Positions 50,646 through 63,905 of a DNA stretch of 64,000 bases are shown one piece after another. The stretch comes from a virus: IMG/VR virus record IMGVR_UViG_3300044692_000034, positions 77,738-141,737 of that record; one strand, written 5' to 3'. The number at the start of each line of letters is the position of its first letter. The first letter of the stretch is position 1. The position numbers and the translations under genes were made by a program. The notes beneath the pieces are model-generated. The model was not told the origin of the DNA and did no database searches. It saw only the letters and a program-made list of their open reading frames with translations.

Positions 50646-52232
50646 CTACTTGACCTTCAGGACGCGGAACGCGTTCGGCGAGAGCACCACCGACGTGTTC
50701 CGCCAGAAGGCGACGATGCCGCGCTGGCCCGTCGGCCGGCCGGACGTGCCGAACAGGTGCGGCACCAGCTCGATGTCCATGCCGACCCGGTCGACGATCA
50801 GGAAGTAGCGCCAGTCGCCGACCGCGAGGATCAGGTTGCCGGTGGCGATACCGCTCGCCATCGCCGAGCACTCGTTCGCCGGCCGCCCGAGGAGCTGCGC
50901 CCCGAGGTTGCCCGGCGTCGGGACCTGGTTCTGGAACCCGAGCTGGAGGTTCTGCACGAAGATGTTCGCGCCGCCCGCCGTGTCGAACTGGCGGGTGAGG
51001 TCGTAGACGGAGAGGTTGCCGACCCACTGCGCGCGGGCGCGGAAGCGGGCGGGCAGGTTCTCCCACACCTTGTAGATGTCGGCCACGGCGAACGTGGCGG
51101 AGCCGGCGCCGGTGACGACCGTCGTCGCGCCCGTCAGGAAGCCGCTCGGCTCGTCGGAGCCGTCGCCGTCCGTGAACTTCTGCGCCTCGACGTCGTCCTT
51201 GCCGTCCTGGATCATGACGGCGATGTCGGACTGGAGCGAACCCCAGTCCTGGCCGATCTCGACCGAGTACGGGATGAACGCGTCGCATCGGACCGGCGTG
51301 GCGTCCGGCTGCGCGAGCGTCGGCGAGTCGTCGGTCATCTGCGCGGCCTGCGCCTTGTACGACACCGAGACACCGGCGGAGCTGACGCCCTGCCACGTCG
51401 TCGTCGCGATGGACTCGACGCGGGCGATGTTGCGGTACGGGTTGACCGAGTGGTTCGACGTCGGGATGATCGTCGGGTCGAGCGTGAACGGCACCGCGAA
51501 GCCGCCGCCGGAGCCGGCGGTCGACAGCGCGCGCTGCTCCTCGTTCGTCAGCGGGCGGCCCATGAGGCTCTTGCCGAACGCGCGCTTGTACTCCGGCGAG
51601 CCCGTCGACAGGATGCGCCGCGCGAGGAAGTCGGCCTGGTCGCTGCCCAGCTCGACGTCCGCGTCACGGAACTTCTCCAGCAGGCCCGCGATGTGCTCCT
51701 GCGCACGCTCCCGCGACACCTCGGGGTGCGGGAACGTCGTGTTCTTGTCCTCGAGCGCGCGGAGAACGTTGTCCCTCAGCTTCGAGGACTCCTCGGCGGG
51801 AGAGCGCGCCCAGTTGCGGATGGCCCAGACGTCGTAGATGTTGGTCGGACCGGAGTCGCGAGTCGTGTGAAACGTGGCACCGCGCTCCGACGACCCGCCG
51901 CCGTCGTTGATGTTCTTGAGCCGGTCCGCGCGAGCGCGCAGCTCCTTGATGATGTCCTCGTTCTCCTCCAGCTCCTCGTTGTAGTCGTTCCACGACTTGC
52001 GCTGAGCCTCCGGCATGATCTGGCCGGCGAACGCGGAGTCCAGCTCCGTCAGGGCGGTGCGGATCTGCGCCTGGCGGACCTCGAACTCCTCGATCGTGCG
52101 CGGCCGATCGTTCGTCGGCAGGCCCGCGAGGAAGAGGGCGTTGGACGTACGCTGCCACGACTCCTCGTCGTGCAGCAGGGAACGGAGGGCGGTCACGCCC
52201 GCCGGGATGGTGAGGGACTTCACAGTCTCCAC
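50646..52232 (-). CDS. HK97-fold major capsid protein with N-terminal delta domain
   Basis: Coiled-coil N-terminus; GGFAVP..LDPTII; GDG..EP.G; LLGRP; GDW..F.IVDR.G; AFRVL. Confidence 0.95.
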   Translation of the reverse strand: METVKSLTIPAGVTALRSLLHDEESWQRTSNALFLAGLPTNDRPRTIEEFEVRQAQIRTALTELDSAFAGQIMPEAQRKSWNDYNEELEENEDIIKELRARADRLKNINDGGGSSERGATFHTTRDSGPTNIYDVWAIRNWARSPAEESSKLRDNVLRALEDKNTTFPHPEVSRERAQEHIAGLLEKFRDADVELGSDQADFLARRILSTGSPEYKRAFGKSLMGRPLTNEEQRALSTAGSGGGFAVPFTLDPTIIPTSNHSVNPYRNIARVESIATTTWQGVSSAGVSVSYKAQAAQMTDDSPTLAQPDATPVRCDAFIPYSVEIGQDWGSLQSDIAVMIQDGKDDVEAQKFTDGDGSDEPSGFLTGATTVVTGAGSATFAVADIYKVWENLPARFRARAQWVGNLSVYDLTRQFDTAGGANIFVQNLQLGFQNQVPTPGNLGAQLLGRPANECSAMASGIATGNLILAVGDWRYFLIVDRVGMDIELVPHLFGTSGRPTGQRGIVAFWRNTSVVLSPNAFRVLKVK

Positions 52233-53353
52233 GGCTCCTTGGTGTTGCCTCGGAGAGGAGTGGGGGCTGACCCCGGCGCCTCAAGGTAATCGGGCCGCTC
52301 GCGGCGCTCTCGGCGCGGCTGCGGCCCCTCGACGATGTCCTCCTTGCCCGGGAGGGGCGGGTGTTCGCGCTGCCAAGCAGGCACGAAATCCTTGTCGCCG
52401 GCCGGTGTGTCAGCCGGCGTGTCTGCGCCCTCCTCGGACTCGCCCGAGGCGCGCTCCGCCGGCTCGTCAGCCGTTGCGTCTGGAGCTTCCGGAGTCGCCT
52501 CGCGGGCGCCCTCCGGCGTCTCCTTCTCGGCAGGTGACGTCTCGGCCGCGCCGTCTTCGGGGTCGGCCTTCTCGTCGGCGCGCTGAGTGGAGACGGTGAT
52601 GTGCTCGCGCGGCTGCTCACGCTCGGGCGAGACCTTGCGAGCAATCAGATCTGCGAGGGTTGCGCCCTCTCCGGCCATGCGCAGCATCTCCGGGTCGCCG
52701 AGACCGAGGCCCGCAGCGATGTACTCGTCCGTCAACGAGCGGAGACCGGCTGTCGCATCGGGATAGGCCGGGAACGTGACAGGCCCGAACTCGCTGACGC
52801 GCATCTCCTTGATGGTGCGCTCAGGAATGCCGTTCGGGTTGTGCTCGGAACGGGGCGGCTCCTGGTTCCAGTCCTCTTTGATGATGCTGAAGCGGAAGCT
52901 AGCGCCGTAGAGCCCGGCTTCGAGGCCGGGGAGAAGGGTGCTGCGCACGTAGTCGGCGTCGAGCAGGTCGACCTCGTACGCGCCACCGGTATTGTCCTCG
53001 GCGAGAGACCGGATCGGGCCGAGCGGCTTGCTACCGATCTGCGGGTCCCGGCCATGTTGGAACAGGACCTTCATGCCCGTCCTGTTCTCTTTGAACGTCT
53101 TCTTGGCAGCCCCGGGCGCGATGCGCTCCATGAAGTTGCCCTCGAACCAAGAGTCGATCTCGGTCCAGCGGTTGAACACGCAGAAGTGCCCGGCCATGAC
53201 TGGCGTGTCACCGTCGCCGGAGCCGTTCTTCGCGCGCAGCTCGATCCCCGGGATGGTTAGCTCTCCCTCGGAAGGGGGAGACCAGAGGCGGATGAGGTTG
53301 TCCCTCGGCGCCTCGTACCGACCCGGAGGCGGCGGCGTTGACTTGCCACTCAT
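52220..53353 (-). CDS. HK97-family prohead protease
   Basis: F.ERIAPGA, VLFQHG, YGASFRF, RTIKE....EFGPVTFPAY..A. Confidence 0.93.
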   Translation of the reverse strand: MSGKSTPPPPGRYEAPRDNLIRLWSPPSEGELTIPGIELRAKNGSGDGDTPVMAGHFCVFNRWTEIDSWFEGNFMERIAPGAAKKTFKENRTGMKVLFQHGRDPQIGSKPLGPIRSLAEDNTGGAYEVDLLDADYVRSTLLPGLEAGLYGASFRFSIIKEDWNQEPPRSEHNPNGIPERTIKEMRVSEFGPVTFPAYPDATAGLRSLTDEYIAAGLGLGDPEMLRMAGEGATLADLIARKVSPEREQPREHITVSTQRADEKADPEDGAAETSPAEKETPEGAREATPEAPDATADEPAERASGESEEGADTPADTPAGDKDFVPAWQREHPPLPGKEDIVEGPQPRRERRERPDYLEAPGSAPTPLRGNTKEPWRL

Positions 53354-53383: not shown

Positions 53384-55117
53384 CTAGTCACCGCCACCTG
53401 TACTTTCGTTAGGACCGGGTCCTTTGTCCATGAAGGGCCACAGGAACGTGCCGGGTTCCCGCGCAGCGCGATGCTTGACGAACGTGTTCCCGAAGCGCAG
53501 GTTGACCATTGTCCGGTCGTCGTCGACCTCGGCCTGCTCGGCAAGTCGCCGCTGCTCCTCCGCTTCTGTCGCCTCGCGCGCGAGCCGCACCTGCCGCGCG
53601 TAGTCGTTCTCTTCGATGACGTCGGCGTCTGGGACGTCGTAGTCTGCTGACGCCGCGCCGCTTGTGCCGTTCGCGCTCGCGCCGGCACCGTTGCCATTCC
53701 CGTTCGAGTTGCCGTTCCCGTTGCCGTTGAGGAGGTTGCTGCTGTTCGTCTCCGGCTGTGACGCTGAGCCGGGCGGTTGGAGCTGGACGCTGACGAGCCC
53801 CGTGTGCTTCAGCAGCGTCATGTCCCCGGCGTTGACAGCCTTCACGACGCTGTCAGGCTCGAAGCCTTCCTTCACAAGGATGGCGATCGTGGTGGCGTCC
53901 GCCTGGAGCGCAGCGGCCGTGTCGGTCGCGTCCTCCTGGAGGAAAGAGATGTCGCTCGGGTCGTACCACAAGCGGACGCCCTGCCCGCGCGGAAGGTCGA
54001 CGATCCGCTGGAGGCTGCCGCACGCGTTGCGCCACATGGGACGCATCGCGAGGTCACCGAACGCGCGCTTGGCCTGCCCGTAGTTGCTGTACGTGCTGGC
54101 GTCAAGACCTTCGCTCAGCCCGATGATGATCGGCGGGACTCGTGCGGCTGCGCAAATGCGTGTCTCGCCCGCGCCCTGCACTTCCTTGAATGACGCCTGT
54201 TGCATGTTGGCTCCGACGAGCGTCACGTCAGCGCCGCCACCGAGGTAGATGGTCTTGTAGGCGTTCATGACGCCCGTGTGTTCTTCCTCGAACGCCTCGA
54301 CGAACTCCTTGAAGTTCTTCGGCGTGATGTCCTTGTCGAGCGAGACGATCGTGTTCACTGTCGCGCCCTGCTCGAAGAACTTCAGCTTGTGTGTGGTGGC
54401 TGCGTCGTCGCTCCGGATCTCTTTGATGACCGGAGTGATCCACGACATGCCACGAAACCGGCCCGTCGGGTCCGGCACGAGCTTGAAGTGAGCGACCTCG
54501 TCCGCGAGAAATGTTTTGACCGGCTGGCCTGAGTTGCGGCCACCCGGATGGTAGATGTAGCCGATGACCTCGGTGTCCCACTCCCACAGAGGATGATCGC
54601 TGTTCGGCTTGAGCTGCGACCCACCGACGATCGTGACCCAGTCAGGCTGGAGGCGCCGGCACGACCACGGCGCCGTACCGAACTGCGACTTCGGGCCACG
54701 CGCGATGAACGCGTTGCCGGCGAGGTCAACATCGAGGGACATGATTGACAGTAGGTCGCTTGTGCTGCCGCCCGCCCAGGGCTCTTCCAACGGGAGTAGC
54801 GCTTGCGTTCCGAAGAGCGCGCCGGCTTTGCCGTTGTCCATCTGCTGGAACTGGAAGCGGGCTTCGCTGAACAGCAGCATGCGTGCGACGAGGCACGCGT
54901 ACACGACGCCGTTGTTCTTCATGGCGCCTTGCACCATGCCCTGGAAGTCGGCGGGGATCTCGTCGGCTGGCTGCCCGAGGCTGTACTGGTTGTTGTTCGG
55001 CATCGGGAAGCCGTTGAGCATGATCATCGACAGCCAGTCGTCGACGGTCAGTGTCGGCCACGTCTCCCCAGATCGCGCCTGCTGACGCCCCCCGAGCCAG
55101 TCACGAAGGACGCTCAT
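53384..55117 (-). CDS. HK97-family portal protein
   Basis: NGVVYAC, LAGNAF, EVAHF, RGMSWI, FFEQGAT, RICAAARVPP..IG, TYSNY. Confidence 0.95.
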   Translation of the reverse strand: MSVLRDWLGGRQQARSGETWPTLTVDDWLSMIMLNGFPMPNNNQYSLGQPADEIPADFQGMVQGAMKNNGVVYACLVARMLLFSEARFQFQQMDNGKAGALFGTQALLPLEEPWAGGSTSDLLSIMSLDVDLAGNAFIARGPKSQFGTAPWSCRRLQPDWVTIVGGSQLKPNSDHPLWEWDTEVIGYIYHPGGRNSGQPVKTFLADEVAHFKLVPDPTGRFRGMSWITPVIKEIRSDDAATTHKLKFFEQGATVNTIVSLDKDITPKNFKEFVEAFEEEHTGVMNAYKTIYLGGGADVTLVGANMQQASFKEVQGAGETRICAAARVPPIIIGLSEGLDASTYSNYGQAKRAFGDLAMRPMWRNACGSLQRIVDLPRGQGVRLWYDPSDISFLQEDATDTAAALQADATTIAILVKEGFEPDSVVKAVNAGDMTLLKHTGLVSVQLQPPGSASQPETNSSNLLNGNGNGNSNGNGNGAGASANGTSGAASADYDVPDADVIEENDYARQVRLAREATEAEEQRRLAEQAEVDDDRTMVNLRFGNTFVKHRAAREPGTFLWPFMDKGPGPNESTGGGD

Positions 55118-55212: not shown

Positions 55213-55503
55213 ATGACCCTCACGAAACTGACCTTTGTTGCTGCTCTCGTTGCCCTCCCGCTCGCGGCTTGCGGCCAGGGACGACAGACGGCGACGACGT
55301 GCACCGACAACGACTTCTACAGTCGCGCCGTCGACATCGCTCACGTCACGTACGGCATTCCGAAGGACGGCCGGTACCTCGCGCTGAGCGCCGCCCATTA
55401 CGACAACGGGCAGGCCGCGACGGTGCATGTGCGTTTCGACGGCACGACGCACGATGTCGACGTCCGTTGCGTCAACGGGCACGCCGAAGTCGACACTCAC
55501 TGA
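55213..55503 (+). CDS. Lipoprotein
   Basis: Lipobox LAAC after hydrophobic signal. Confidence 0.7.
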   Translation: MTLTKLTFVAALVALPLAACGQGRQTATTCTDNDFYSRAVDIAHVTYGIPKDGRYLALSAAHYDNGQAATVHVRFDGTTHDVDVRCVNGHAEVDTH

Positions 55504-55736
55504 GGGGTCCTCCGGTTGCCTCGCGGTGGCGAACTGACCAAGAACGCCACCGCGAGCAACAGGACCCCTAGCACCACGATGGCGACCCAGGGGGCTAGTC
55601 CCCATGCCAGGCCCCCGGTTACGCAGCACAGCCCCAGGACCGCGAGGAGCTGCGCGACATAGAGCCGCGCCTTCTGCGACGGGACGGCGCGCTCGGTACG
55701 CCTCCCTGTCGGGTTTGTGTTAGTCGCGGCTGCCAT
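55497..55736 (-). CDS. Small 2-TM membrane protein (pre-portal)
   Basis: Two TM helices; GGAGG RBS. Confidence 0.7.
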   Translation of the reverse strand: MAAATNTNPTGRRTERAVPSQKARLYVAQLLAVLGLCCVTGGLAWGLAPWVAIVVLGVLLLAVAFLVSSPPRGNRRTPQ

Positions 55737-55966
55737 CGAGCCTCCCGTAGAGGACCGTGGTCACGGGCTCTCCTCCCGTGGAGACGGTCGGTTCGATGGC
55801 CGCATCGTGTGGCGTTTCGTGCGTGCGGGTCATGGCCGGGCACGGTACGCGCGCCCGCGATTGGACCAGCCGGTGGACTACCCGAACGGCAGTTTGCTTA
55901 CGCCGTGTTCAGGTAGAACGCTGGCAACGACGCGCCAATCCCGGCGCTTGGTCATAGGAGGCCATC

Positions 55967-56221
55967 GTGAGCAAGGACACCAAGGACTTCCCGTCCGCCC
56001 TCGGCGCCCCGGCCGAGCACCCCGCGAACCCGAAGATCGTCGGTCCGTCGACGGATCCGCTGGTCGTTGAGGAGGGCACCCGCAAGACGGTGCCGATCCA
56101 GGACCCGCCCGGCCCGTCGCCGTTCAAGTACGTCGACGACCGGGGCAAGGAGCATGACAGCGCCGGCGACGCGATGGACGCGACGCGCAAGAACGCCGAG
56201 CGCAAGAACGACAGCGACTAG
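55967..56221 (+). CDS. Hypothetical protein
   Basis: AGGAGG RBS. Confidence 0.65.
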   Translation: MSKDTKDFPSALGAPAEHPANPKIVGPSTDPLVVEEGTRKTVPIQDPPGPSPFKYVDDRGKEHDSAGDAMDATRKNAERKNDSD

Positions 56222-56227
56222 CTGCCG

Positions 56228-56593
56228 GTGAGCGACTTCATCGAACGCGTCCGTGAGGTCGCTCGCAACCACGGATACGCAATCGGCGTCCACGGCTCGC
56301 AGAAACGTGACCTGGACCTCATGGCCATGCCGTGGACGCCTGAAGCGTGCAGCGCGCAGGACCTCGTAGACGCCATCTCCGAGGAACTCGACCTCCATCA
56401 GCGTGCCGTCAACCTGTACGCCGAGCCCGATGGGCCGCGCGTCATGCCGAACCCGGAGCCGAAGCCATGGGGCCGGCTCGCGTGGTCACTCGACGGCTGT
56501 CCGTCTCACTGGAAGTACGTCGACATCAGCGTCGCGCCGCGAGCCGGAGAAGCAGTTCCGGTGATCGCCTACCAAGTGGTAACTTCGAAGTGA
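56228..56593 (+). CDS. Minimal nucleotidyltransferase-like phage protein
   Basis: GYAIGVHGSQKRDLDL (GS..DxD) and distal YVDIS. Confidence 0.55.
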   Translation: MSDFIERVREVARNHGYAIGVHGSQKRDLDLMAMPWTPEACSAQDLVDAISEELDLHQRAVNLYAEPDGPRVMPNPEPKPWGRLAWSLDGCPSHWKYVDISVAPRAGEAVPVIAYQVVTSK

Positions 56594-56599
56594 CATGCC

Positions 56600-56627
56600 C
56601 GGCCGGGGTGGGAGCGCACCCCGGCCG
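56600..56627. terminator. Hairpin between convergent genes
   Basis: cggccggggtg-ggagcg-caccccggccg. Confidence 0.65.
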
Positions 56628-56633
56628 AGTTGT

Positions 56634-56999
56634 CTAGAGCCGCCAGGGCTCCGAGCCGGGATCGTACCCCTTCGTCTCGCTTGACTTCGCGGCGTTCTGG
56701 TGTCGCTTCAGGTGCGCCTCGACGCCGGCGCGGTCCGCATCGGGGATGTTCGCTCCCGGTAGACGCGCCAGCGCGTTGTTGACGCCGTTCAGGTTTGCAG
56801 CTCCCGGCTTGCCATTGACGACCTCGTGGTGCGGGAACTTGTACGCCGCCTTCTTCGTCTGGTCCGCGCTTCCGTCGACCCACGCGTACATCAGCCGCAG
56901 TGTCGACCTGCCGGCGTCGTCAGGGATCTTGCTGACCTGAGAATTCGCATCCCAGGTCCCTTCGACCACCTTCGTGTTGTGTGGACCGATTGCAGGCAA
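56634..56999 (-). CDS. Stand-alone head-associated domain (WD...YAWVD...YKFPHH) ending EPWRL
   Basis: GAGGAGG RBS before TTG; domain I recognise as usually fused to phage prohead proteases. Confidence 0.7.
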   Translation of the reverse strand: MPAIGPHNTKVVEGTWDANSQVSKIPDDAGRSTLRLMYAWVDGSADQTKKAAYKFPHHEVVNGKPGAANLNGVNNALARLPGANIPDADRAGVEAHLKRHQNAAKSSETKGYDPGSEPWRL

Positions 57000-57400
57000 C
57001 TGACCTCCTCGATGCAAGTTGCCGTGCACGGTACCGGCGACAGCCCGAGCGTGTGTACCATGCCTATGCTCCCGGCCGGACAGCCCGGGGCGTGTATGGC
57101 TCAAAGGCGTTGACGGCGGCTGGTGGTCTATGGGAGGACTCCGGCCGCCGTTGGCGTCTCCTGTACCATGCGCCGCGCGACGTCGAGCGGGCCGCCTCAT
57201 ACCCTGCGACCCCAGAGGGCGAACACTCTCCACGACCCCATAACGACCAGGTGCGGGGAGCCGTCGGATCAGGTGCGAACAATCTCCCGGCTAGTCCTCC
57301 GACGCCGCCTACTTTCTCGCGTAGTGGGTATCGGGGGTGCGCAGGCTGCGCGCACCCGTGTAGCCTGCCGGCCACTCTTGGCCCGCCGTAGGAGCGCCCC

Positions 57401-57702: not shown

Positions 57703-57875
57703 TGACGACGATACCTGTACTCGGATCGACGAAAGTCCGCGAAGTTGAGTGGCCGCCATGCGCCGGCGAATGCCCCAGGTGCACGGCGCGCCTTCAATTC
57801 CACAGCCTGACGGCATGGTGCCTCTCGTGTGGCTGGTCACTCAACCGCGACCACGAGCCCGGCAAGACGGCATGA
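57702..57875 (+). CDS. Small Zn-ribbon protein
   Basis: CPRC...WCLSCGW. Confidence 0.5.
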   Translation: MTTIPVLGSTKVREVEWPPCAGECPRCTARLQFHSLTAWCLSCGWSLNRDHEPGKTA

Positions 57876-58168
57876 CCGGCAAGTTCGCAATCAGTGGCAG
57901 GATCCCAGTCGACGACCAGACGACCGTGTCGCAGGTGTCAGGCGTCGGCGCACCCGTGAAGGACGAGCATGGCAACGTCATCGGCGAGGTCGTCGGTGTC
58001 GGTCACGACCGCCGTGGCCTCTCCGTCGACATGGTGCTGACTGAGCAGGCGTACAGCGACGTCCTGCACGGCCGTGAGCCGGTCTTCTTTACGGCGCCTA
58101 CTCGTGCCGACGCTGAGCGGACATACCGTACGGCGCTCGCGCGACTACGCCGTCAGCACTGGTTCTAA
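57872..58168 (+). CDS. Hypothetical protein with prohead-protease-like segment
   Basis: PVKDEHGNVIGEVVGVGHDRRGLSVDMVL; ATGA coupling. Confidence 0.6.
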   Translation: MTGKFAISGRIPVDDQTTVSQVSGVGAPVKDEHGNVIGEVVGVGHDRRGLSVDMVLTEQAYSDVLHGREPVFFTAPTRADAERTYRTALARLRRQHWF

Positions 58169-58231
58169 AGACGGCAACGGCTCGCCGTCCTAGCGAGCCG
58201 TCAACCTGGAGGGGTTTGGACAACCGGGATG

Positions 58232-58606
58232 CTACACAGCATCCGGGCTCTTGTCGAAGAGTCGCGCTAGCACCCGCTCCACCGCACGGTGTAGGTCGGA
58301 CTCCAGCGCTGCGGCGTCTCCGACTGTGGCAGGCCCAGCCGTGCCGGCAGGGAACGTCACCTCGACCGACACACCTGTCGGCCGGATTCGGATGTCGTAG
58401 ACCGCGCCGGGCGTCTGGCATTCGGACGCAGCCATCTGTTCGACGCCGCGCCGCATCCAATCAAGCGCCTCCGTGATGAACGTCAGGGCGTGGCGGCCGT
58501 CGGAGATGCCGGGGTGCGAGTACGCGCGGTTGAGGGCGTCGCGGGCGTTTGCGATGCACTCGCGCGGCGCGACGCGGTCGGGGCCGATGGGGTCGTTCCA
58601 GTTCAC
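58232..58606 (-). CDS. Hypothetical protein
   Basis: GTGA coupling with upstream gene. Confidence 0.55.
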   Translation of the reverse strand: MNWNDPIGPDRVAPRECIANARDALNRAYSHPGISDGRHALTFITEALDWMRRGVEQMAASECQTPGAVYDIRIRPTGVSVEVTFPAGTAGPATVGDAAALESDLHRAVERVLARLFDKSPDAV

Positions 58607-59268
58607 CTGATCACCAAGTAGTCGCCACGGTTGCGCTTCGGGGGGTTTGTCATCGCTGCCCAGATTCGTGTTTCGAGTTCGGCGATGTGCATGAACGCTG
58701 GTTCGTCGAGCCCTAGCCACCACTCGTTGAGGTCACGCCATGCCCACTCTTCGTCGGAGAGTTCGAGGCATTCGGGCTTGCCGCACCGCGACCCCATGAC
58801 CTGGCTGCCGCATTCGGTGCAGCCCCGGATGCGTGCTACCACTGGCGTCCCCTCGTACGCGACGATGTCTCCGCCGATGGCCTGCTCGTACTTGACGCCA
58901 CCTTCGAGGACCACGGTGCGCCTGTTCTGGTCAGCTACGGCACGCTCGAACTGCTCGGCGAGTCGTTCGCGTGCCGCGTAGTAGGCGGCTTTCTGCGACG
59001 TGTTGTCGCCGGTCACATAGCCGCTGCTGGAGAAGGTTTCGACGTGCAGGCTGTAGGGGACGGCGTACCCGCCCCTGATCTCGTTCTCCGACAGGAGCCC
59101 TGCCTCCCTGACGAGCTTCTCCCATCGTGCGGCTTCGTCTGCTGGCAGCGGAAGCCCTTCGAATCGTTCGTCGATCGACTTCAGCTCTTCGACGCATTCG
59201 TGTATGGCTGCCATGACCTCGGTCCGGAGCATGAGGGTCTCCTCAGCGTAGGAGGCCCATGAAGCCAT
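58603..59268 (-). CDS. Mosaic protein with capsid- and portal-like segments
   Basis: See finding; gap-free motif matches to this phage's capsid protein. Confidence 0.65.
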   Translation of the reverse strand: MASWASYAEETLMLRTEVMAAIHECVEELKSIDERFEGLPLPADEAARWEKLVREAGLLSENEIRGGYAVPYSLHVETFSSSGYVTGDNTSQKAAYYAARERLAEQFERAVADQNRRTVVLEGGVKYEQAIGGDIVAYEGTPVVARIRGCTECGSQVMGSRCGKPECLELSDEEWAWRDLNEWWLGLDEPAFMHIAELETRIWAAMTNPPKRNRGDYLVIR

Positions 59269-59548
59269 CGTGCATGAGGCTGTCGCGTACGAACGCCGGG
59301 ATTGCTTCGAACGCGGTCTGTACTTTGACCGTGATCTTCTGGCCGGTTGACGGCTCGATGGTGTAGCCGAAGAACATGTACGGCATGCCGCCGTACATGA
59401 CGTAGTCCGGGTGGGTTACGACGCGGTACGCGTAGCGCGGCCACACCGGAGTCTCTGTGTTTGCTGCCGCTGGTACACCCTCGGGCATGGACTCCGCCCA
59501 GGGGAGCGCCGGCTGCGGCGTGGTGCTCTTCTCGCGTTGCTTACGCAT
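59243..59548 (-). CDS. Hypothetical protein (portal N-terminus-like segment)
   Basis: Operon coupling; weak similarity to portal N-terminus. Confidence 0.55.
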   Translation of the reverse strand: MRKQREKSTTPQPALPWAESMPEGVPAAANTETPVWPRYAYRVVTHPDYVMYGGMPYMFFGYTIEPSTGQKITVKVQTAFEAIPAFVRDSLMHDGFMGLLR

Positions 59549-60029
59549 GCTGGTACTCAGCGTACCCCGCGACGGCTTCGATGCGCTGATCGTGCCGTTG
59601 CAACCGGTACGCAAGGTAGTCCTTGACCTCACGAGCGTACGGTCCCTTTGACCAGCCCTCCAGCATGAGTACGTCATCCTTCGATTGGACGTCAACCGAG
59701 GCGTCGTATGGCTGTCGGTCTGTGGAGAAGAGATGCGCCCCGTCCCAGCCGACGTTGTCGCGGACGTACGCCACGACCTGACTGAGCGTGCGACCCACGA
59801 CGCATGTCGGCTTGCTTGCGTCAGACGCCGGTACCGCCTGAACGTCAATCTCGGGCGTGTCGCAAATCGCGTCCGCTGCGACTGCACGAGCTATCCCGGT
59901 AAGCGACGTAGTCAACGACTTGATGACGTCGGCTGGTAGCTCGCCGCTGTCGACCAAATCCAGCGGTATCGAAAGACTGAACAGGTGCGAGGGGTAGCGG
60001 CGCGTGGGCAGGCGGTCTGGGTCAGGCAT
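59541..60029 (-). CDS. Hypothetical protein
   Basis: Overlapping stop/start with neighbours. Confidence 0.6.
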   Translation of the reverse strand: MPDPDRLPTRRYPSHLFSLSIPLDLVDSGELPADVIKSLTTSLTGIARAVAADAICDTPEIDVQAVPASDASKPTCVVGRTLSQVVAYVRDNVGWDGAHLFSTDRQPYDASVDVQSKDDVLMLEGWSKGPYAREVKDYLAYRLQRHDQRIEAVAGYAEYQHA

Positions 60030-60768
60030 CGAGTCGAGGGGTTTGGAGTTTGTGCATGACCAAGGCAAGCATCGCTTGCGTCGAGTTGTCCGACTCCTCG
60101 ACCATGCGAAGTTCGTCGTACAGCTCAGGCTCGGCCTGTCGGAACAGCTCGGCTTGGCGGTTCGCTATCGCCAGCGACGCAAGTTCCTGCGAATAGAACG
60201 TCGTCTCCTGACACGCTCTGCACGTCCCCGACCAGTGGTCGCTGCGGCTCTCTGGTTCTTTTGCTTTGACATGGCCGCCGCACTTGTGGCACGTGAAAAC
60301 GTCACCGATCGCTTGGTCTCGGTATTGACGAGAACGCTGCTCCGTCAGGGGGCCGAGCGCTTCGACATCGCGGCGGCGTGCGTAGTCGAGAAATTCGAGG
60401 CGAATCGTAGGCAAGTCGTCAGGGTGCTCAGTCACCGGCACGCCGAAGAGTGTCTTGCGCGGATCTGTCGCGCTGCCGCTGAACCCGACAGCGAAGCCTG
60501 TGTCATGAGGATCGGCGCTGACCATGTCGACCCAATCCACCTTGTGGAACCTGACCTCAAGGTACTTGCCGAGCTCAAACGCCAGTCGCTTACCGGCCGT
60601 GTCGAGCAGGCCCCTGGCGCTCGCTACCTCGCGCGGCAGCGGCTCTATGCCCACCGTCCCGGGTGTTACGCGAGGGTCCACCATGAAGTGCTTCACGCTT
60701 TTGCCCTGCATTTGCGCGGCCTGGAGCACAGCTCGTATCCGACCAAAAGGTGTGGTTGGCTCAGTCAA
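60022..60768 (-). CDS. Hypothetical protein with Zn ribbon
   Basis: TCHKCG...TCRAC; TLFGVPV motif. Confidence 0.6.
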   Translation of the reverse strand: MTEPTTPFGRIRAVLQAAQMQGKSVKHFMVDPRVTPGTVGIEPLPREVASARGLLDTAGKRLAFELGKYLEVRFHKVDWVDMVSADPHDTGFAVGFSGSATDPRKTLFGVPVTEHPDDLPTIRLEFLDYARRRDVEALGPLTEQRSRQYRDQAIGDVFTCHKCGGHVKAKEPESRSDHWSGTCRACQETTFYSQELASLAIANRQAELFRQAEPELYDELRMVEESDNSTQAMLALVMHKLQTPRLDA

Positions 60769-61159
60769 CGGTGAACCTAAAGGTGTCGTAGCCGAACAGT
60801 GTGTTGGCGTGGCGGGTGTAGGCAGGCGGGATGTCCTGCCCGCGCTCGGCGTACTGCCTGGCGATGTGCGCGAGGTACGCGTCTTCCATGTGGTCAGCGG
60901 CCGTGCGCTCCGTGCCCGGCTTCCACACGTACGTGTAGGCGCAGTCAGCGCACGCGTAGATGCAGTCACCGACGTAGTAGACGCGGTCAAAGATGGCGAT
61001 GCCACGGTCAAGTGCAGCGCGGATCGTCGGGTGGTCGAGCATGAGCGAGTACGACGGGCTCACATCCACCCGGTAGATGAACGTCGCCAAGCGGCCACAG
61101 TTGGGCGCCTCGCACTTGGTGCCGAGGGGGATCTCAGGGAGCGGGTCCCACATGCTCAT
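60761..61159 (-). CDS. Hypothetical Zn-binding protein
   Basis: CEAPNC...CADC. Confidence 0.6.
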   Translation of the reverse strand: MSMWDPLPEIPLGTKCEAPNCGRLATFIYRVDVSPSYSLMLDHPTIRAALDRGIAIFDRVYYVGDCIYACADCAYTYVWKPGTERTAADHMEDAYLAHIARQYAERGQDIPPAYTRHANTLFGYDTFRFTVD

Positions 61160-61512
61160 GCCGGCGGCTCCAGCTTGCTCGTCTCGACGGTCTTCTCTCC
61201 GCGTGGCATGGGGTCCACGTACCAGCTCGGGGCATCCGGACCTGCGGTCTGGACGAACGTGCCGGTAGTGGTGCCGCCGTCCTTACTGACCCTGATCTCG
61301 AAGACGCGGTGGCAGGCGGGGCACTCGAACGCATCCGCGTACGGCGGCTCACGGAACGCCATGTCCGCCGGCCGCATGACCATGACGTCCGGGTGTGCGC
61401 AGTACGGGCACGGCATCCACTGCGCGACCTCGAGGCCATGCCCTGTGACCCTTGCGCGCTTCATCGCGGTGGCGTTCAGCTCCTCCATGCTGCTGAACGT
61501 TTCAGGCTCCAT
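61156..61512 (-). CDS. Hypothetical Zn-ribbon protein
   Basis: CPYC...CPAC; AAGGA RBS. Confidence 0.6.
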   Translation of the reverse strand: MEPETFSSMEELNATAMKRARVTGHGLEVAQWMPCPYCAHPDVMVMRPADMAFREPPYADAFECPACHRVFEIRVSKDGGTTTGTFVQTAGPDAPSWYVDPMPRGEKTVETSKLEPPA

Positions 61513-61684
61513 TTGCTGTCCTTTCGTACCTGCGCCATTCGCGGTTGTCTCGGGCTCTCTCAAGTCGAACAGCGGCGCGCTCCCTGCCCAGCTCGCAGTA
61601 CTGCCCGTGTCCGTGCACGTGGCAGTGCCCGCCCTTGCCGATACGGCCGCGCATACGACTCGCCTGCCGGTTACGCCCACGCAT
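61502..61684 (-). CDS. Small basic hypothetical protein
   Basis: Fills gap between neighbouring genes. Confidence 0.4.
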   Translation of the reverse strand: MRGRNRQASRMRGRIGKGGHCHVHGHGQYCELGRERAAVRLERARDNREWRRYERTANGA

Positions 61685-62060
61685 ACCGCACCTTGCGTGG
61701 CGGCTCCGGCACGCGTACCTCGCGTATGGGTTGCATGCTCTCACCCTCCGGGACGATGACGAATTCCAAAGGCCCGACCGACGGCAACGTTTCGAACAAA
61801 CCTTTAGGCCACTCGACCGTGTACTCCATCCGGTAAGTCGTCCCGACAGGTGCGCTCGTGTCGATCTCAGGGCGTAGGCATGCCCCTTGCTCCGGTACCA
61901 CCACCCGCGCCCGCTCACGCACCACCACCCCGCCACTCTCCACGCAGGACCACACACTCAACGCGTCCGTGAGGTCACATGGACCGTCCTGGTCGCAGAG
62001 CACCACACGCGGCGGGAGTATGACACCTTGCTCAACCTCTATCCGTGTCCGCTCGTGCAT
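61671..62060 (-). CDS. Hypothetical protein, probably leaderless
   Basis: TACGCT hexamer 7 nt upstream of ATG. Confidence 0.55.
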   Translation of the reverse strand: MHERTRIEVEQGVILPPRVVLCDQDGPCDLTDALSVWSCVESGGVVVRERARVVVPEQGACLRPEIDTSAPVGTTYRMEYTVEWPKGLFETLPSVGPLEFVIVPEGESMQPIREVRVPEPPRKVRYAWA

Positions 62061-62465: not shown

Positions 62466-62493
62466 GCCCTAACCCGCCGATGCGGGCTAGGGC
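62466..62493 (-). terminator. Hairpin at end of FtsK-like gene
   Basis: gccctaacccgc-cgat-gcgggctagggc overlapping the stop codon. Confidence 0.45.
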
Positions 62494-63905
62494 GTGGGGT
62501 CGGTGTCTGTGCCGTCCCCGAACGGCACAGCACGGCCGTCGTCCGGAAGCGTCCGGTGTAGCCACTCGTCCGCCCGGAGCCCATGAGCGCGACGCGCAAG
62601 ATTTTCGATGTCGGAGTCCGTCAGGTGGAACGCTTTCACGCGCAACGGAACGGCCTCCTCCGCCGCGAGCCACCCGATCCCCCGCGAGTTTTCGGTCGGC
62701 GGGATGGTTGAGGCGTCGTACCCCTGGCTCGCTGCCCGCGTGCCGAGGATCATGTCGCTTGCTTCTGCGGTGCCGGACCGGAACGCCCACCGGTACCCGA
62801 TGAGGTCCCGGAGCGATGTGGGGATCACGTCGTGTGACGGCTTCTGCGCCGCGCCGATGAAGATCACGCCGGGGGCTCGTCCCCTGCGGACCAGGTCCGT
62901 GGCGGTCTCCATGAGTGCGGTGCCGAGCGCCTTGCTCCCTACCTTTGGTCCGGCAAGGCTTGCGTAGTACGGCATCTCGTCCATGACGACGACGATGAGC
63001 TTGAGGCCCATGCTCCTCGTGATCGCCCTCGCCCCCTCCGCCTTCAGGATGTCCTTGCGGCCGTTCATCTCCTCCTGAACGGTTTTCAGGACGTCGAGTG
63101 CTTCTTTGCCGTCAAGGCCGACGAACGCTTTGCAGCACGGCGTCCATGCCGTCATCTCGTAGTCCTTGCCGTCCAGGATGTACAGGTCAACGTCGGGGTC
63201 GAGGGCGGCCGTAGCCACAATCTGGCTCATGCCGACGCTCTTACCCGACCCCGGCTCCCCACCGAGGAGAAGGTTTCGTTGCACGAGCGTGATGGACCGC
63301 TCGTAACCGTCCTCGTCGACAGCGACAGGGATCGGCTCCCACATCGACAACTGCTGCCGGTACAAGTGAGGCCACTCGTACGACTCACCCGTCATGAACG
63401 GGTCACGGCGGACGAGGACAGCCTGAGCCCTGGATGCGTCCATCGGCCGCGCCGGGTCACGAGTCACCTTGACCATGCTGCACTTGAGGGCGCCCGCCAT
63501 CTTCTGCGCCGCTGCGTCAAGCGCAGCGATCTCATCGCCGTTCGCGACCTTCAGCGTCAGCTTCTCCCCGGTCGGGACGTGCGCGACACGCAGCACACGC
63601 GGCGGGTCGACATTCCGCCTGGCGTCCATCGCCGCGCGCCGCCACTGCCGGCGCACCATGCTCGTCGTCAACCACCGCGTCAGCACGCCACGAACCCGGG
63701 CGTTTGACACGAGCACAACCGTTGTGACACTTGTCAAGCCGATCCCGATCTGGGTGCCGAGCCTTAGGCTCAGGGTGAGAGCAGTCACGAACACGACGGT
63801 GAACATCGCCAGCTCGACCCTGACACGCCACAGCAGTCGCACAAACGACGCGATCACATCAGTGCCTTCGCTCTTCCGACTGCCGCTGCGAGATGTTGAA
63901 GCCAT
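62487..63905 (-). CDS. FtsK/SpoIIIE-family DNA translocase (TraB/TcpA-like)
   Basis: N-terminal TM helices; Walker A GGEPGSGKS; Walker B VVVMDE; RRGRAPGV; AAQKPS.DVIPT.LRD. Confidence 0.9.
   Translation of the reverse strand: MASTSRSGSRKSEGTDVIASFVRLLWRVRVELAMFTVVFVTALTLSLRLGTQIGIGLTSVTTVVLVSNARVRGVLTRWLTTSMVRRQWRRAAMDARRNVDPPRVLRVAHVPTGEKLTLKVANGDEIAALDAAAQKMAGALKCSMVKVTRDPARPMDASRAQAVLVRRDPFMTGESYEWPHLYRQQLSMWEPIPVAVDEDGYERSITLVQRNLLLGGEPGSGKSVGMSQIVATAALDPDVDLYILDGKDYEMTAWTPCCKAFVGLDGKEALDVLKTVQEEMNGRKDILKAEGARAITRSMGLKLIVVVMDEMPYYASLAGPKVGSKALGTALMETATDLVRRGRAPGVIFIGAAQKPSHDVIPTSLRDLIGYRWAFRSGTAEASDMILGTRAASQGYDASTIPPTENSRGIGWLAAEEAVPLRVKAFHLTDSDIENLARRAHGLRADEWLHRTLPDDGRAVPFGDGTDTDPTP

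What the first reader, a model, noticed from the sequence alone, without database searches (positions are those of the whole stretch)
56634..56999. Shared C-terminal EPWRL tag between the prohead protease and a stand-alone head domain
Seen: the protease ends ...PGSAPTPLRGNTKEPWRL* (GAG CCG TGG AGA CTG) and this protein ends ...YDPGSEPWRL* (GAG CCC TGG CGG CTC). The peptide is identical but the codons differ, so the similarity is at protein level. Established: HK97-type proteases are recruited into procapsids through interaction with the capsid delta domain. Inference: EPWRL is a procapsid-targeting signal, and this YKFPHH-type domain (which I recall mostly fused to proteases) is loaded as separate cargo or competes for the docking site.
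Basis: partly seen in the sequence, partly recalled or inferred. Interest (0 to 1): 0.75.

Follow-up and report, generated by a model that had tools for sequence, protein, structure and literature searches.

The report
Protease's capsid-docking tail copied onto cargo
A small head-module protein of an uncultured 142-kb soil phage ends in the same five residues (EPWRL) as the phage's head-maturation protease, and comparison with relatives shows this is a conserved end-tag of the protease clade, most likely the peptide that docks both proteins inside the assembling capsid.

Summary
The 121-aa protein (56634-56999, minus strand) and the S78 prohead protease (52220-53353) both end in EPWRL, with four synonymous codon differences.

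It is not chance. The tail is a family motif: 59 of the 120 protease relatives listed end in ..PL[YF]G..KE.[PS]W[RL]L (46 at the very end). A scoring matrix built from 44 independent protease tails ranks the protease and the small protein first and second among 2086 frame ends in the whole genome (15.1 and 13.4 bits; the next is 5.2).

The small protein is a confidently folded 109-residue His-rich domain with no Pfam family and no solved fold. About 75% of its relatives are fused to ClpP, S49 or S78 prohead proteases.

Five other stand-alone copies carry the same tail after linkers of very different length. In two of their phages the protease also ends W-x-[LIM].

Both tails are predicted disordered. 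Tail type tracks the type of capsid scaffold domain, and the motif is absent at the junction of protease-capsid fusions.

Best reading (about 0.6): a shared procapsid-docking peptide. Binding and packaging are untested.

This is a new variant of a known kind. The scan has noted T4-type N-terminal capsid tags in other phages, but not this C-terminal motif.

The parts
56634..56999 (-). Gene for the 121-aa stand-alone head-module protein (TTG start, TAG stop)
   Evidence: ORF and sequence; coding-like GC3 of 0.82; homologues conserve the N-terminus from residue 1
57004..57010 (-). Ribosome-binding site GAGGAGG, 4 bases before the TTG start
   Evidence: read from the sequence
56673..56999 (-). Folded domain, residues 1-109 (motif K-x3-K-F-P-H-H ... 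H-x3-H); unnamed family usually fused to prohead proteases
   Evidence: AlphaFold2 pLDDT 84-98 over residues 1-100; 3058 family representatives; no Pfam or PHROG hit; no solved fold match
56637..56672 (-). Disordered C-terminal tail, residues 110-121 (GYDPGSEPWRL region); the EPWRL codons are 56637-56651
   Evidence: pLDDT below 50 for residues 110-121; scores 13.4 bits against the protease-tail matrix
56592..56634 (.). 13-bp G+C-rich hairpin straight after the stop codon, between convergent genes (terminator-like). No gene overlaps the tail codons
   Evidence: -33.1 kcal/mol, z -3.15, 0 of 200 shuffles fold as well
52220..53353 (-). S78 (HK97-type) prohead protease, 377 aa. Catalytic domain is about residues 10-195, a disordered tether covers about 245-372, and the terminal EPWRL codons are 52223-52237
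   Evidence: PF04586 E=1.8e-21; AlphaFold2 model with tail pLDDT about 35; sequence of the 3' end
50646..52232 (-). Major capsid protein with a long N-terminal scaffold (delta) domain (TIEEFEVRQAQIRTALTELDSAFAGQ). Its start overlaps the protease stop (GTGA at 52220-52223, or GTG at 52230-52232). Proposed docking partner
   Evidence: PF05065 at residues 243-526; aligns from its first residues with the capsid protein of L002
53384..55117 (-). Portal protein
   Evidence: PF04860 E=9e-36

Best explanation
The last residues of the protease (consensus ..P-L-[YF]-G-x-[RK]-K-E-x-[PS]-W-[RL]-L-COOH) form a short linear motif at the end of a long disordered tether. This motif most likely docks the protease onto the inner face of the assembling procapsid. 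The probable site is the N-terminal scaffold (delta) domain of the major capsid protein, by analogy with the C-terminal targeting region of the HK97 protease.

The 121-aa protein is a His-rich domain that in most phages is covalently part of a head-interior protein. In this lineage it is a separate gene, and it carries its own copy of the docking motif on a short flexible linker. It would therefore be co-assembled into the procapsid through the same site as the protease, and would necessarily compete with the protease for that site.

Shown here: the motif, its conservation, its recurrence on stand-alone copies, the predicted disorder, and the association with capsid-scaffold type.

Inferred: the binding partner, encapsidation, and what the domain does once inside. 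A metal-binding or enzymatic role is suggested only by the conserved His and Asp residues.
For: 1. The motif is a clade feature. 46 of the 120 protease relatives listed end W-x-[LI] and 13 more have it 1-2 residues from the end; 33 also have the upstream hydrophobic-hydrophobic-Gly.
2. Genome-wide, the small protein's tail is second only to the protease's own.
3. Five further stand-alone domain proteins end ..ELFGTRRPSAESWRL..ELFGLRAPAREPWRL..RGFEDWRL..NPSAEDWRL and ..PIYGQEVAPSWQL. The linker length differs widely among them, yet W and the terminal L are invariant while the domains are only 49-73% identical to the first sequence of that alignment. This indicates purifying selection on the very end.
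4. There are three paired cases: the window EPWRL/EPWRL; L003 ..PIYGQEVAPSWQL with protease ..WIYGQRRTEERWTM; and L282/L292 ..AEDWRL with protease ..DEPSWRI.
5. Domain-S78 fusions exist within the same set of protease relatives. Two near-identical loci, L160 and L162, encode one that keeps a W-x-L tail, and L138 carries a domain of the same subtype at its N-terminus. A gene fission in which the freed domain kept or gained a tag is therefore plausible.
6. Both tails are predicted disordered and do not pack on their own domains.
7. Tail class goes with the type of delta-domain N-terminus: RNPNR with ELRxWI in 6/6; the EEWLxWL class with LRSVEEL in 6/7; W-x-L never with either. Meanwhile the catalytic-domain tree mixes the tail classes.
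8. None of the protease-capsid fusions examined has the motif at the junction.
9. No gene overlaps the small gene's tail, so overlap constraints cannot explain it there.
Against:
- The association between tail and delta type is confounded, because the tail codons lie next to the capsid gene. The catalytic-domain tree was a quick, weakly resolved one.
- The six tailed stand-alone proteins are each other's closest relatives, so they may represent a single acquisition.
- Within pairs, positions -2 and -4 do not match, so there is no strict co-variation.
- Most stand-alone copies of the domain have no such tail, so the domain does not always need it.
- In the protease, the W codon together with the last base of the preceding codon forms a possible capsid-gene start (CCG-TGG gives GTG). 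Part of the conservation there could reflect gene overlap.
- In 80 loci of protease relatives, no other clearly credible coding ORF carries the tail, so this is not a general cargo system.
Confidence: 0.6

Rival explanations
1. The tail binds the protease itself (an exosite, the oligomer interface or the active site), not the capsid. On this reading the stand-alone domain uses the tail to re-associate in trans with the protease it is fused to in other phages. It then rides into the procapsid as a complex, or regulates the protease.
For: About 75% of domain-bearing proteins are fused to a prohead protease. In L003 the gene sits between portal and protease, exactly where the N-terminal domain of a fusion would lie.
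Against: The domain is fused to three unrelated protease families and also to capsid and MuF proteins. The AlphaFold2 monomer model shows no docking of the tail on the catalytic domain. Tail class switches within well-supported catalytic-domain clades and follows the capsid scaffold type instead. The motif is absent at the junction when the protease is fused to the capsid protein.
Confidence: 0.15
2. The tail is a shared signal for something other than head assembly, such as a C-terminal degron or a chaperone or adaptor recognition site that times the turnover of both proteins, or a portal-binding peptide.
For: Short conserved C-terminal peptides on disordered tethers are typical of degrons and adaptor sites (general knowledge). 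Nothing in these data identifies the partner directly.
Against: The association with the capsid scaffold type and the absence of the motif in protease-capsid fusions are not expected for a degron. Apart from the protease, the only proteins found with it belong to one head-module family.
Confidence: 0.12
3. The tail is a relic of gene fission or duplication from a protease fusion and has no present function in the small protein.
For: Fusions of the domain with an S78 protease exist in the same set of relatives.
Against: There are four synonymous and no non-synonymous differences in the five codons. The terminal W-[RQ]-L is kept in six stand-alone proteins whose domains have diverged to 49-73% identity and whose linkers differ widely in length.
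Confidence: 0.07
4. Chance identity of five residues.
For: Only five residues are identical, and BLASTP finds nothing further.
Against: The tail ranks second of 2086 frame ends against an independently built motif matrix. Only 4 of 212,793 8-mers score as high. The tail recurs in relatives.
Confidence: 0.02

Closest known systems
C-terminal capsid-targeting region of the HK97 maturation protease gp4 (Duda, Oh & Hendrix 2013, J Mol Biol 425:2765; seen only in reference lists; its content is recalled from memory, the paper was not held)
   Same: Same protease family (S78). The same gene order portal-protease-capsid, with a scaffold domain fused to the capsid protein. The targeting information lies at the protease C-terminus, and heterologous proteins fused to it are encapsidated.
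   Different: In HK97 the signal was mapped (as I recall) to a region of tens of residues, not to a defined end motif. No natural second protein is known to carry it. Here it is a 5-15 residue motif at the end of a tether of about 130 disordered residues, and it is found on a separate gene.
Nested protease/scaffold gene pairs that share a C-terminus (herpesvirus UL26/UL26.5; lambda C/Nu3), from general knowledge
   Same: A protease and a second internal head protein share the same C-terminal capsid-binding end, so both are recruited through one site.
   Different: There the sharing comes from in-frame nested translation of one DNA stretch. Here two separate genes 3.3 kb apart encode the peptide with different codons, and the second protein is not a scaffold.
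Encapsulin cargo-loading (targeting) peptides
   Same: A short C-terminal peptide on a flexible linker is appended to otherwise unrelated cargo and docks on the interior of an HK97-fold shell.
   Different: The sequence motif is different. The shell here is a true phage procapsid with portal, protease and scaffold domain. The proposed site is the scaffold domain rather than the shell's P-domain or N-arm pocket. Only one cargo family has been found.
T4 capsid-targeting sequence of internal proteins, and the N-terminal signal of P1 DarB (PMC9024508)
   Same: Portable peptides that load non-structural proteins into phage heads.
   Different: Those are N-terminal, occur in different phage lineages, and (for T4) are removed by the protease. 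This one is C-terminal and copied from the protease itself.

Membership tests
Peptidase S78 (HK97-type prohead protease), for the 377-aa protein | Match to PF04586 above the curated cut-off | tested here: met
   77.4 bits against a cut-off of 21, E=1.8e-21, residues 39-203; phrog_80 head maturation protease, 6.9e-27
Peptidase S78 (HK97-type prohead protease), for the 377-aa protein | Position between the portal gene and a capsid gene that has an N-terminal scaffold domain | tested here: met
   Portal 53384-55117, protease 52220-53353, capsid 50646-52232, all on the minus strand
Protease-associated K-x3-K-F-P-H-H domain family (unnamed; defined here by profile A1/A3), for the 121-aa protein | Full-length match to the family profile with the conserved residues W16, K50, K54, P56, H57, H58, H96 and H100 | tested here: met
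   E=1.6e-54 against the A1 profile. The window's own sequence is one of the 10 that built this profile, so the score is partly circular. Invariant columns are listed. 3058 representatives at E<=0.001
Protease-associated K-x3-K-F-P-H-H domain family | Association with head-morphogenesis genes or fusions | tested here: met
   39 ClpP, 36 S78 and 13 S49 among 118 representatives; capsid and MuF fusions. In this window it lies 1.5 kb upstream of the portal gene on the same strand
Capsid-targeting peptide of HK97-type proteases (functional class) | Located at the C-terminus of the protease and conserved among relatives | tested here: met
   59 of 120 relatives carry W-x-[LIM] at or within 2 residues of the end
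Capsid-targeting peptide of HK97-type proteases (functional class) | Necessary and sufficient to direct a protein into procapsids, and dependent on the delta domain | not testable with these tools
   Only indirect support: association between tail and delta type, and absence of the motif at the junction in protease-capsid fusions
Encapsulin cargo-loading peptide | Shell protein without portal, protease or tail genes, and a cargo peptide of the known consensus | tested here: not met
   Portal, protease and capsid are in the window, a large terminase is elsewhere in the genome, and a tail-fibre-like hit lies next to the head module. The motif E-x-W-R-L differs from the encapsulin consensus as I recall it

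The most novel reading that the evidence does not exclude
HK97-type tailed phages have a natural, transferable C-terminal cargo-loading peptide (minimal core E-x-W-R-L-COOH). It is read by the capsid protein's scaffold domain, in functional parallel to encapsulin targeting peptides. This phage lineage uses it to pack a free, probably metal-binding, enzyme-like domain into the head alongside the protease. That domain may act inside the capsid or be delivered into the host with the DNA.
Probability: 0.35. Interest if true: 0.75.

Novelty: new variant of a known kind. Interest (0 to 1): 0.6.

Why it matters
How HK97-type proteases are counted into procapsids is understood only at the level of "the C-terminal part is needed".

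These data propose a defined end motif of 5-15 residues for a large, so far uncultured protease clade. They also offer a natural experiment: the same motif on an unrelated small protein in at least three phages. Together these make the docking step directly testable with peptides, point mutants and reporter fusions.

The work also gives a first functional handle on a widespread, unnamed domain. It has 3058 representatives, occurs in bacterial phages and appears by fold match in haloarchaeal virus proteins, and rides on ClpP-, S49- and S78-type head proteases.

If the motif is sufficient for loading, it would be a compact tag for packing proteins into HK97-like capsids.

Tried and rejected
- **Known families for the small protein.** Pfam, PHROGs and a relaxed Pfam scan of 56 family members found nothing. 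The DUF6582 lead from the protein atlas was not borne out.
- **Fold searches.** Foldseek against PDB found no match with E<=0.001. The wide VIA search gave a best Z of 3.9. BFVD returned only unnamed viral proteins and one haloarchaeal virus "prohead protease".
- **Cultured phages.** There was no hit for the small protein. Protease hits are at most 39% identical and none aligns to the tail. Che9c and Gordonia ThankyouJordi proteases end in a different R..LLN-type tail. No isolated model phage is therefore available.
- **Other tagged cargo.** In 80 loci of protease relatives, 9 of 6957 ORFs match a loose W-x-L end, and all but one look like non-coding frames. Nothing else in this genome matches.
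- **More paired cases.**
  - The metagenome scan and the genome scan returned almost only fused forms and no new tailed stand-alone copy.
  - The contig of P0279 is not in IMG/VR.
- **Literature.** Duda et al. 2013 and Veesler et al. 2014 are not held.
- **Gene overlap as the cause of conservation.** The idea that overlap with the capsid start codon explains the motif was considered. It cannot apply to the small gene, which is followed by a hairpin and a convergent gene.
- **The neighbouring note on head-protein fragments.** BLASTP between ORFs at 57.7-62 kb and the portal, protease and capsid proteins gave nothing below E=0.01.

Full report
**The observation**

The window is the last 64 kb of a 141.7-kb, 65% G+C viral record. 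On the minus strand lie a portal gene (53384-55117, PF04860), an S78 HK97-type prohead protease (52220-53353, PF04586, 377 aa) and a major capsid protein with a long N-terminal scaffold domain (50646-52232, PF05065 at residues 243-526).

About 1.5 kb upstream of the portal, beyond three small plus-strand genes, is the gene in question (56634-56999, minus strand, 121 aa). It has a TTG start four bases after GAGGAGG and coding-like codon-position G+C (0.64/0.48/0.82).

The gene ends GAG CCC TGG CGG CTC TAG. The protease ends GAG CCG TGG AGA CTG TGA. The peptide EPWRL is identical in both, with four synonymous and no non-synonymous differences.

**Is it chance?**

No.

- Across the whole genome, EPWRL is the only shared C-terminal 5-mer that is not a low-complexity product of a non-coding frame.
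- The tail is a family motif. Of the 120 best protease relatives in the large protein collection, 46 end W-x-[LI] and 13 more have the motif one or two residues from the end. The consensus is ..P-L-[YF]-G-x-[RK]-K-E-x-[PS]-W-[RL]-L.
- A scoring matrix for the last eight residues was built from 44 relatives, leaving out this phage's protease and its 73% relative. It puts the protease (15.1 bits) and the small protein (13.4 bits) first and second among 2086 frame ends of the genome. The third scores 5.2, and the mean is -20 with sd 6.6. Only 4 of 212,793 8-mers anywhere reach 13.4 bits.

**What the small protein is**

It matches no Pfam or PHROG family and nothing in 50,697 phage records. A profile search of 1.84 billion representatives nevertheless finds 3058 relatives.

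Nearly all the best hits are longer proteins with the domain at one end or in the middle. Of 118 scanned, 39 carry a ClpP-type, 36 an S78 and 13 an S49 protease domain. Others are fused to a capsid protein or a MuF-like minor head protein.

AlphaFold2 with a 56-sequence alignment gives a confident model (mean pLDDT 88, pTM 0.80). Residues 1-109 fold into a small alpha/beta domain and residues 110-121, the tail, are disordered. The fold has no clear solved relative: no Foldseek PDB match with E<=0.001, and a best Z of 3.9 in the wide search. BFVD gives only unnamed viral proteins and a haloarchaeal virus "prohead protease".

The conserved residues are rich in His and Asp (H7, D17, D42, H57, H58, D89, H96, H100). 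This hints at metal binding, but that is an inference only.

**The tail recurs on stand-alone copies**

Most stand-alone copies end right after the last helix (..HLEDAQEE) or in a different conserved end (..AGKEPPPLK). Five do not:

| Protein | C-terminal end |
|---|---|
| P0279 | ..KKTELFGTRRPSAESWRL |
| P0281 | ..KKTELFGLRAPAREPWRL |
| P0284 | ..PVRGFEDWRL |
| P0322 | ..GGGNPSAEDWRL |
| P0159 | ..AEPIYGQEVAPSWQL |

Two of these even reproduce the upstream hydrophobic-hydrophobic-Gly of the protease consensus.

These five and the window's protein are each other's closest relatives (49-73% identity to the first sequence of that alignment). Their linkers differ widely in length, yet W and the terminal L are invariant. 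This pattern fits purifying selection on the extreme C-terminus and does not fit a decaying relic.

**Paired cases**

Both partners can be read in three phages.

| Phage | Small protein ends | Protease ends |
|---|---|---|
| Window | EPWRL | EPWRL |
| L003 (order: terminase, portal, domain gene, S78+S49 protease, capsid) | ..PIYGQEVAPSWQL | ..WIYGQRRTEERWTM |
| L282 (protease end read from the 99%-identical contig L292) | ..NPSAEDWRL | ..EPEDEPSWRI |

In L003 the pair even shares IYGQ. In L282 the small gene lies upstream of the terminase genes.

What is shared is W at -3 and an aliphatic last residue. Positions -2 and -4 differ within pairs, so there is no strict residue-by-residue co-variation.

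**Origin**

Within the same set of protease relatives there are domain-S78 fusions. One is a 462-aa protein encoded by two near-identical loci, L160 and L162, that still ends ..TKEEGPSWIL. Another, L138, has an N-terminal domain with the same IPNDAG..AWVD signature as the tailed stand-alone subfamily.

The simplest history is fission of such a fusion, with the freed domain keeping or acquiring its own copy of the end motif. In the fused state the domain enters wherever the protease goes. Once separate, it carries the protease's address. This is the strongest comparative argument that the motif is an address.

**Which partner?**

- Both tails are predicted disordered. In the protease model the catalytic domain (about residues 10-195) is confident, while residues 245-377 are not. 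The tail does not pack back on the enzyme.
- Among 54 separate proteases from related loci, the tail class goes with the type of N-terminal helix of the capsid scaffold domain. RNPNR tails go with ELRxWI in 6/6. Tails of the EEWLxWL class go with LRSVEEL in 6/7, and six further loci whose tails my patterns left unclassified also have it. W-x-L tails are never found with either type.
- A quick catalytic-domain tree mixes the tail classes. W-x-L needs at least 3 changes even on starred branches. One 96%-supported clade holds both W-x-L tails and tails of the other kinds, each with the matching scaffold type.
- None of the protease-capsid fusion proteins examined has the motif at the junction. 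This is expected if the motif's job is to tether the protease to the capsid protein.

These points favour the capsid scaffold domain as the partner. That agrees with what is known for HK97 gp4 (Duda et al. 2013; recalled, not read here).

Caveats: the tail codons are physically next to the capsid gene, so linkage alone could produce part of this association. The tree is also weakly resolved.

**An overlap caveat**

In the protease gene the capsid start overlaps the end, either as GTGA at the stop or as GTG inside CCG-TGG. The same holds in L002 and many relatives, whose capsid proteins begin MAAV or MEAV. Part of the conservation in proteases could thus reflect gene overlap.

This cannot apply to the small gene. 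Its stop codon is followed at once by a 13-bp hairpin (-33.1 kcal/mol; 0 of 200 shuffles fold as well) and a convergent gene.

**Scope**

This is not a general cargo system. No other frame in this genome carries the motif. In 80 loci of protease relatives only one coding-like ORF has a loose match, and that is probably chance.

The domain does not always need a tail. In the five loci with a tail-less stand-alone copy that were examined, the gene sits between the portal or a MuF-sized ORF and a scaffold-like ORF, and no S78 protease was detected.

No isolated phage in the collection has this tail. The nearest cultured proteases are at most 39% identical and end differently.

**Verdict**

It holds that the tail is a procapsid-docking peptide shared by the protease and a separate cargo-like domain, which therefore also compete for one site.

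Rivals:
- The tail binds the protease (0.15).
- The tail is another kind of C-terminal signal (0.12).
- The tail is a functionless relic (0.07).
- Chance (0.02).

The case is a new variant of a known kind. Capsid-targeting signals are known: the HK97 gp4 C-terminal region, nested protease/scaffold pairs, encapsulin targeting peptides, and the T4 and P1 N-terminal signals. To my knowledge, no defined end motif of an HK97-type protease clade that is naturally copied onto a separate gene has been described. My literature searches found no such description.

Noticed in passing
window 58603-59268 (-): This 221-aa ORF has a first ~50 residues (..EELKSIDERFEGLPLPADEAARWEKL) that weakly resemble the N-terminal helix of scaffold (delta) domains in related capsid proteins (best E=9e-4 against a small set). 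It also has a 48-residue sub-threshold Pfam portal match (E=6.8e-6, 25.9 bits against a cut-off of 39.1). It may be a second accessory protein carrying a copied head-assembly element. If the W-R-L tail binds delta domains, this protein could bind it too.
   Followed up: partly
window 57749-62060: The neighbouring first-stage note says that several small ORFs here carry fragments of head proteins. BLASTP against this phage's portal, protease and capsid proteins gave nothing below E=0.01 for any of them.
   Followed up: partly
genome C1:43057-44631 (about 33 kb before the window's start): The only match to a large terminase lies about 88 kb from the portal gene. In relatives (L002, L003, L282) it sits directly upstream of the portal. 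In this phage the head module has been separated from the packaging genes.
   Followed up: partly
window 55213-56593 (+) and 55497-55736 (-): A block of small genes sits between the small gene and the portal. It includes three opposite-strand genes, one with a lipoprotein-like signal (MTLTKLTFVAALVALPLAACGQ), and a possible membrane protein. It looks like an insertion into the head module.
   Followed up: no
L002 243-2777 and 2862-5543: In a related 13-kb viral contig, both the large terminase (844 aa) and the portal (893 aa) are much longer than usual. Each contains an insert that reads like an intein with a homing endonuclease.
   Followed up: no
L003 6992-8767; L282 4957-6801 with L292 3-1925: Some relatives have a double prohead protease: an S78 domain followed by an S49 (SppA-like) domain in one protein of 590-640 aa, still ending in the W-x-[LIM] tail.
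   Followed up: partly
protease relatives, loci L084-L162: There are at least three other conserved C-terminal tail classes in the same protease clade (..VV.RNPNR.., ..REEWL.WLS.., ..WPHVP..EWE.LW..). Each goes with its own type of capsid scaffold N-terminus. This suggests a family of interchangeable tail and scaffold pairs.
   Followed up: partly
window 62487-63905 (-): An FtsK/SpoIIIE-family ATPase (PF01580, E=2.4e-9) lies at the end of the record.
   Followed up: no
L001 1171-7399: In a relative, the tail-less stand-alone domain gene is followed by a run of glycosyltransferase and methyltransferase genes, possibly for capsid glycosylation.
   Followed up: no
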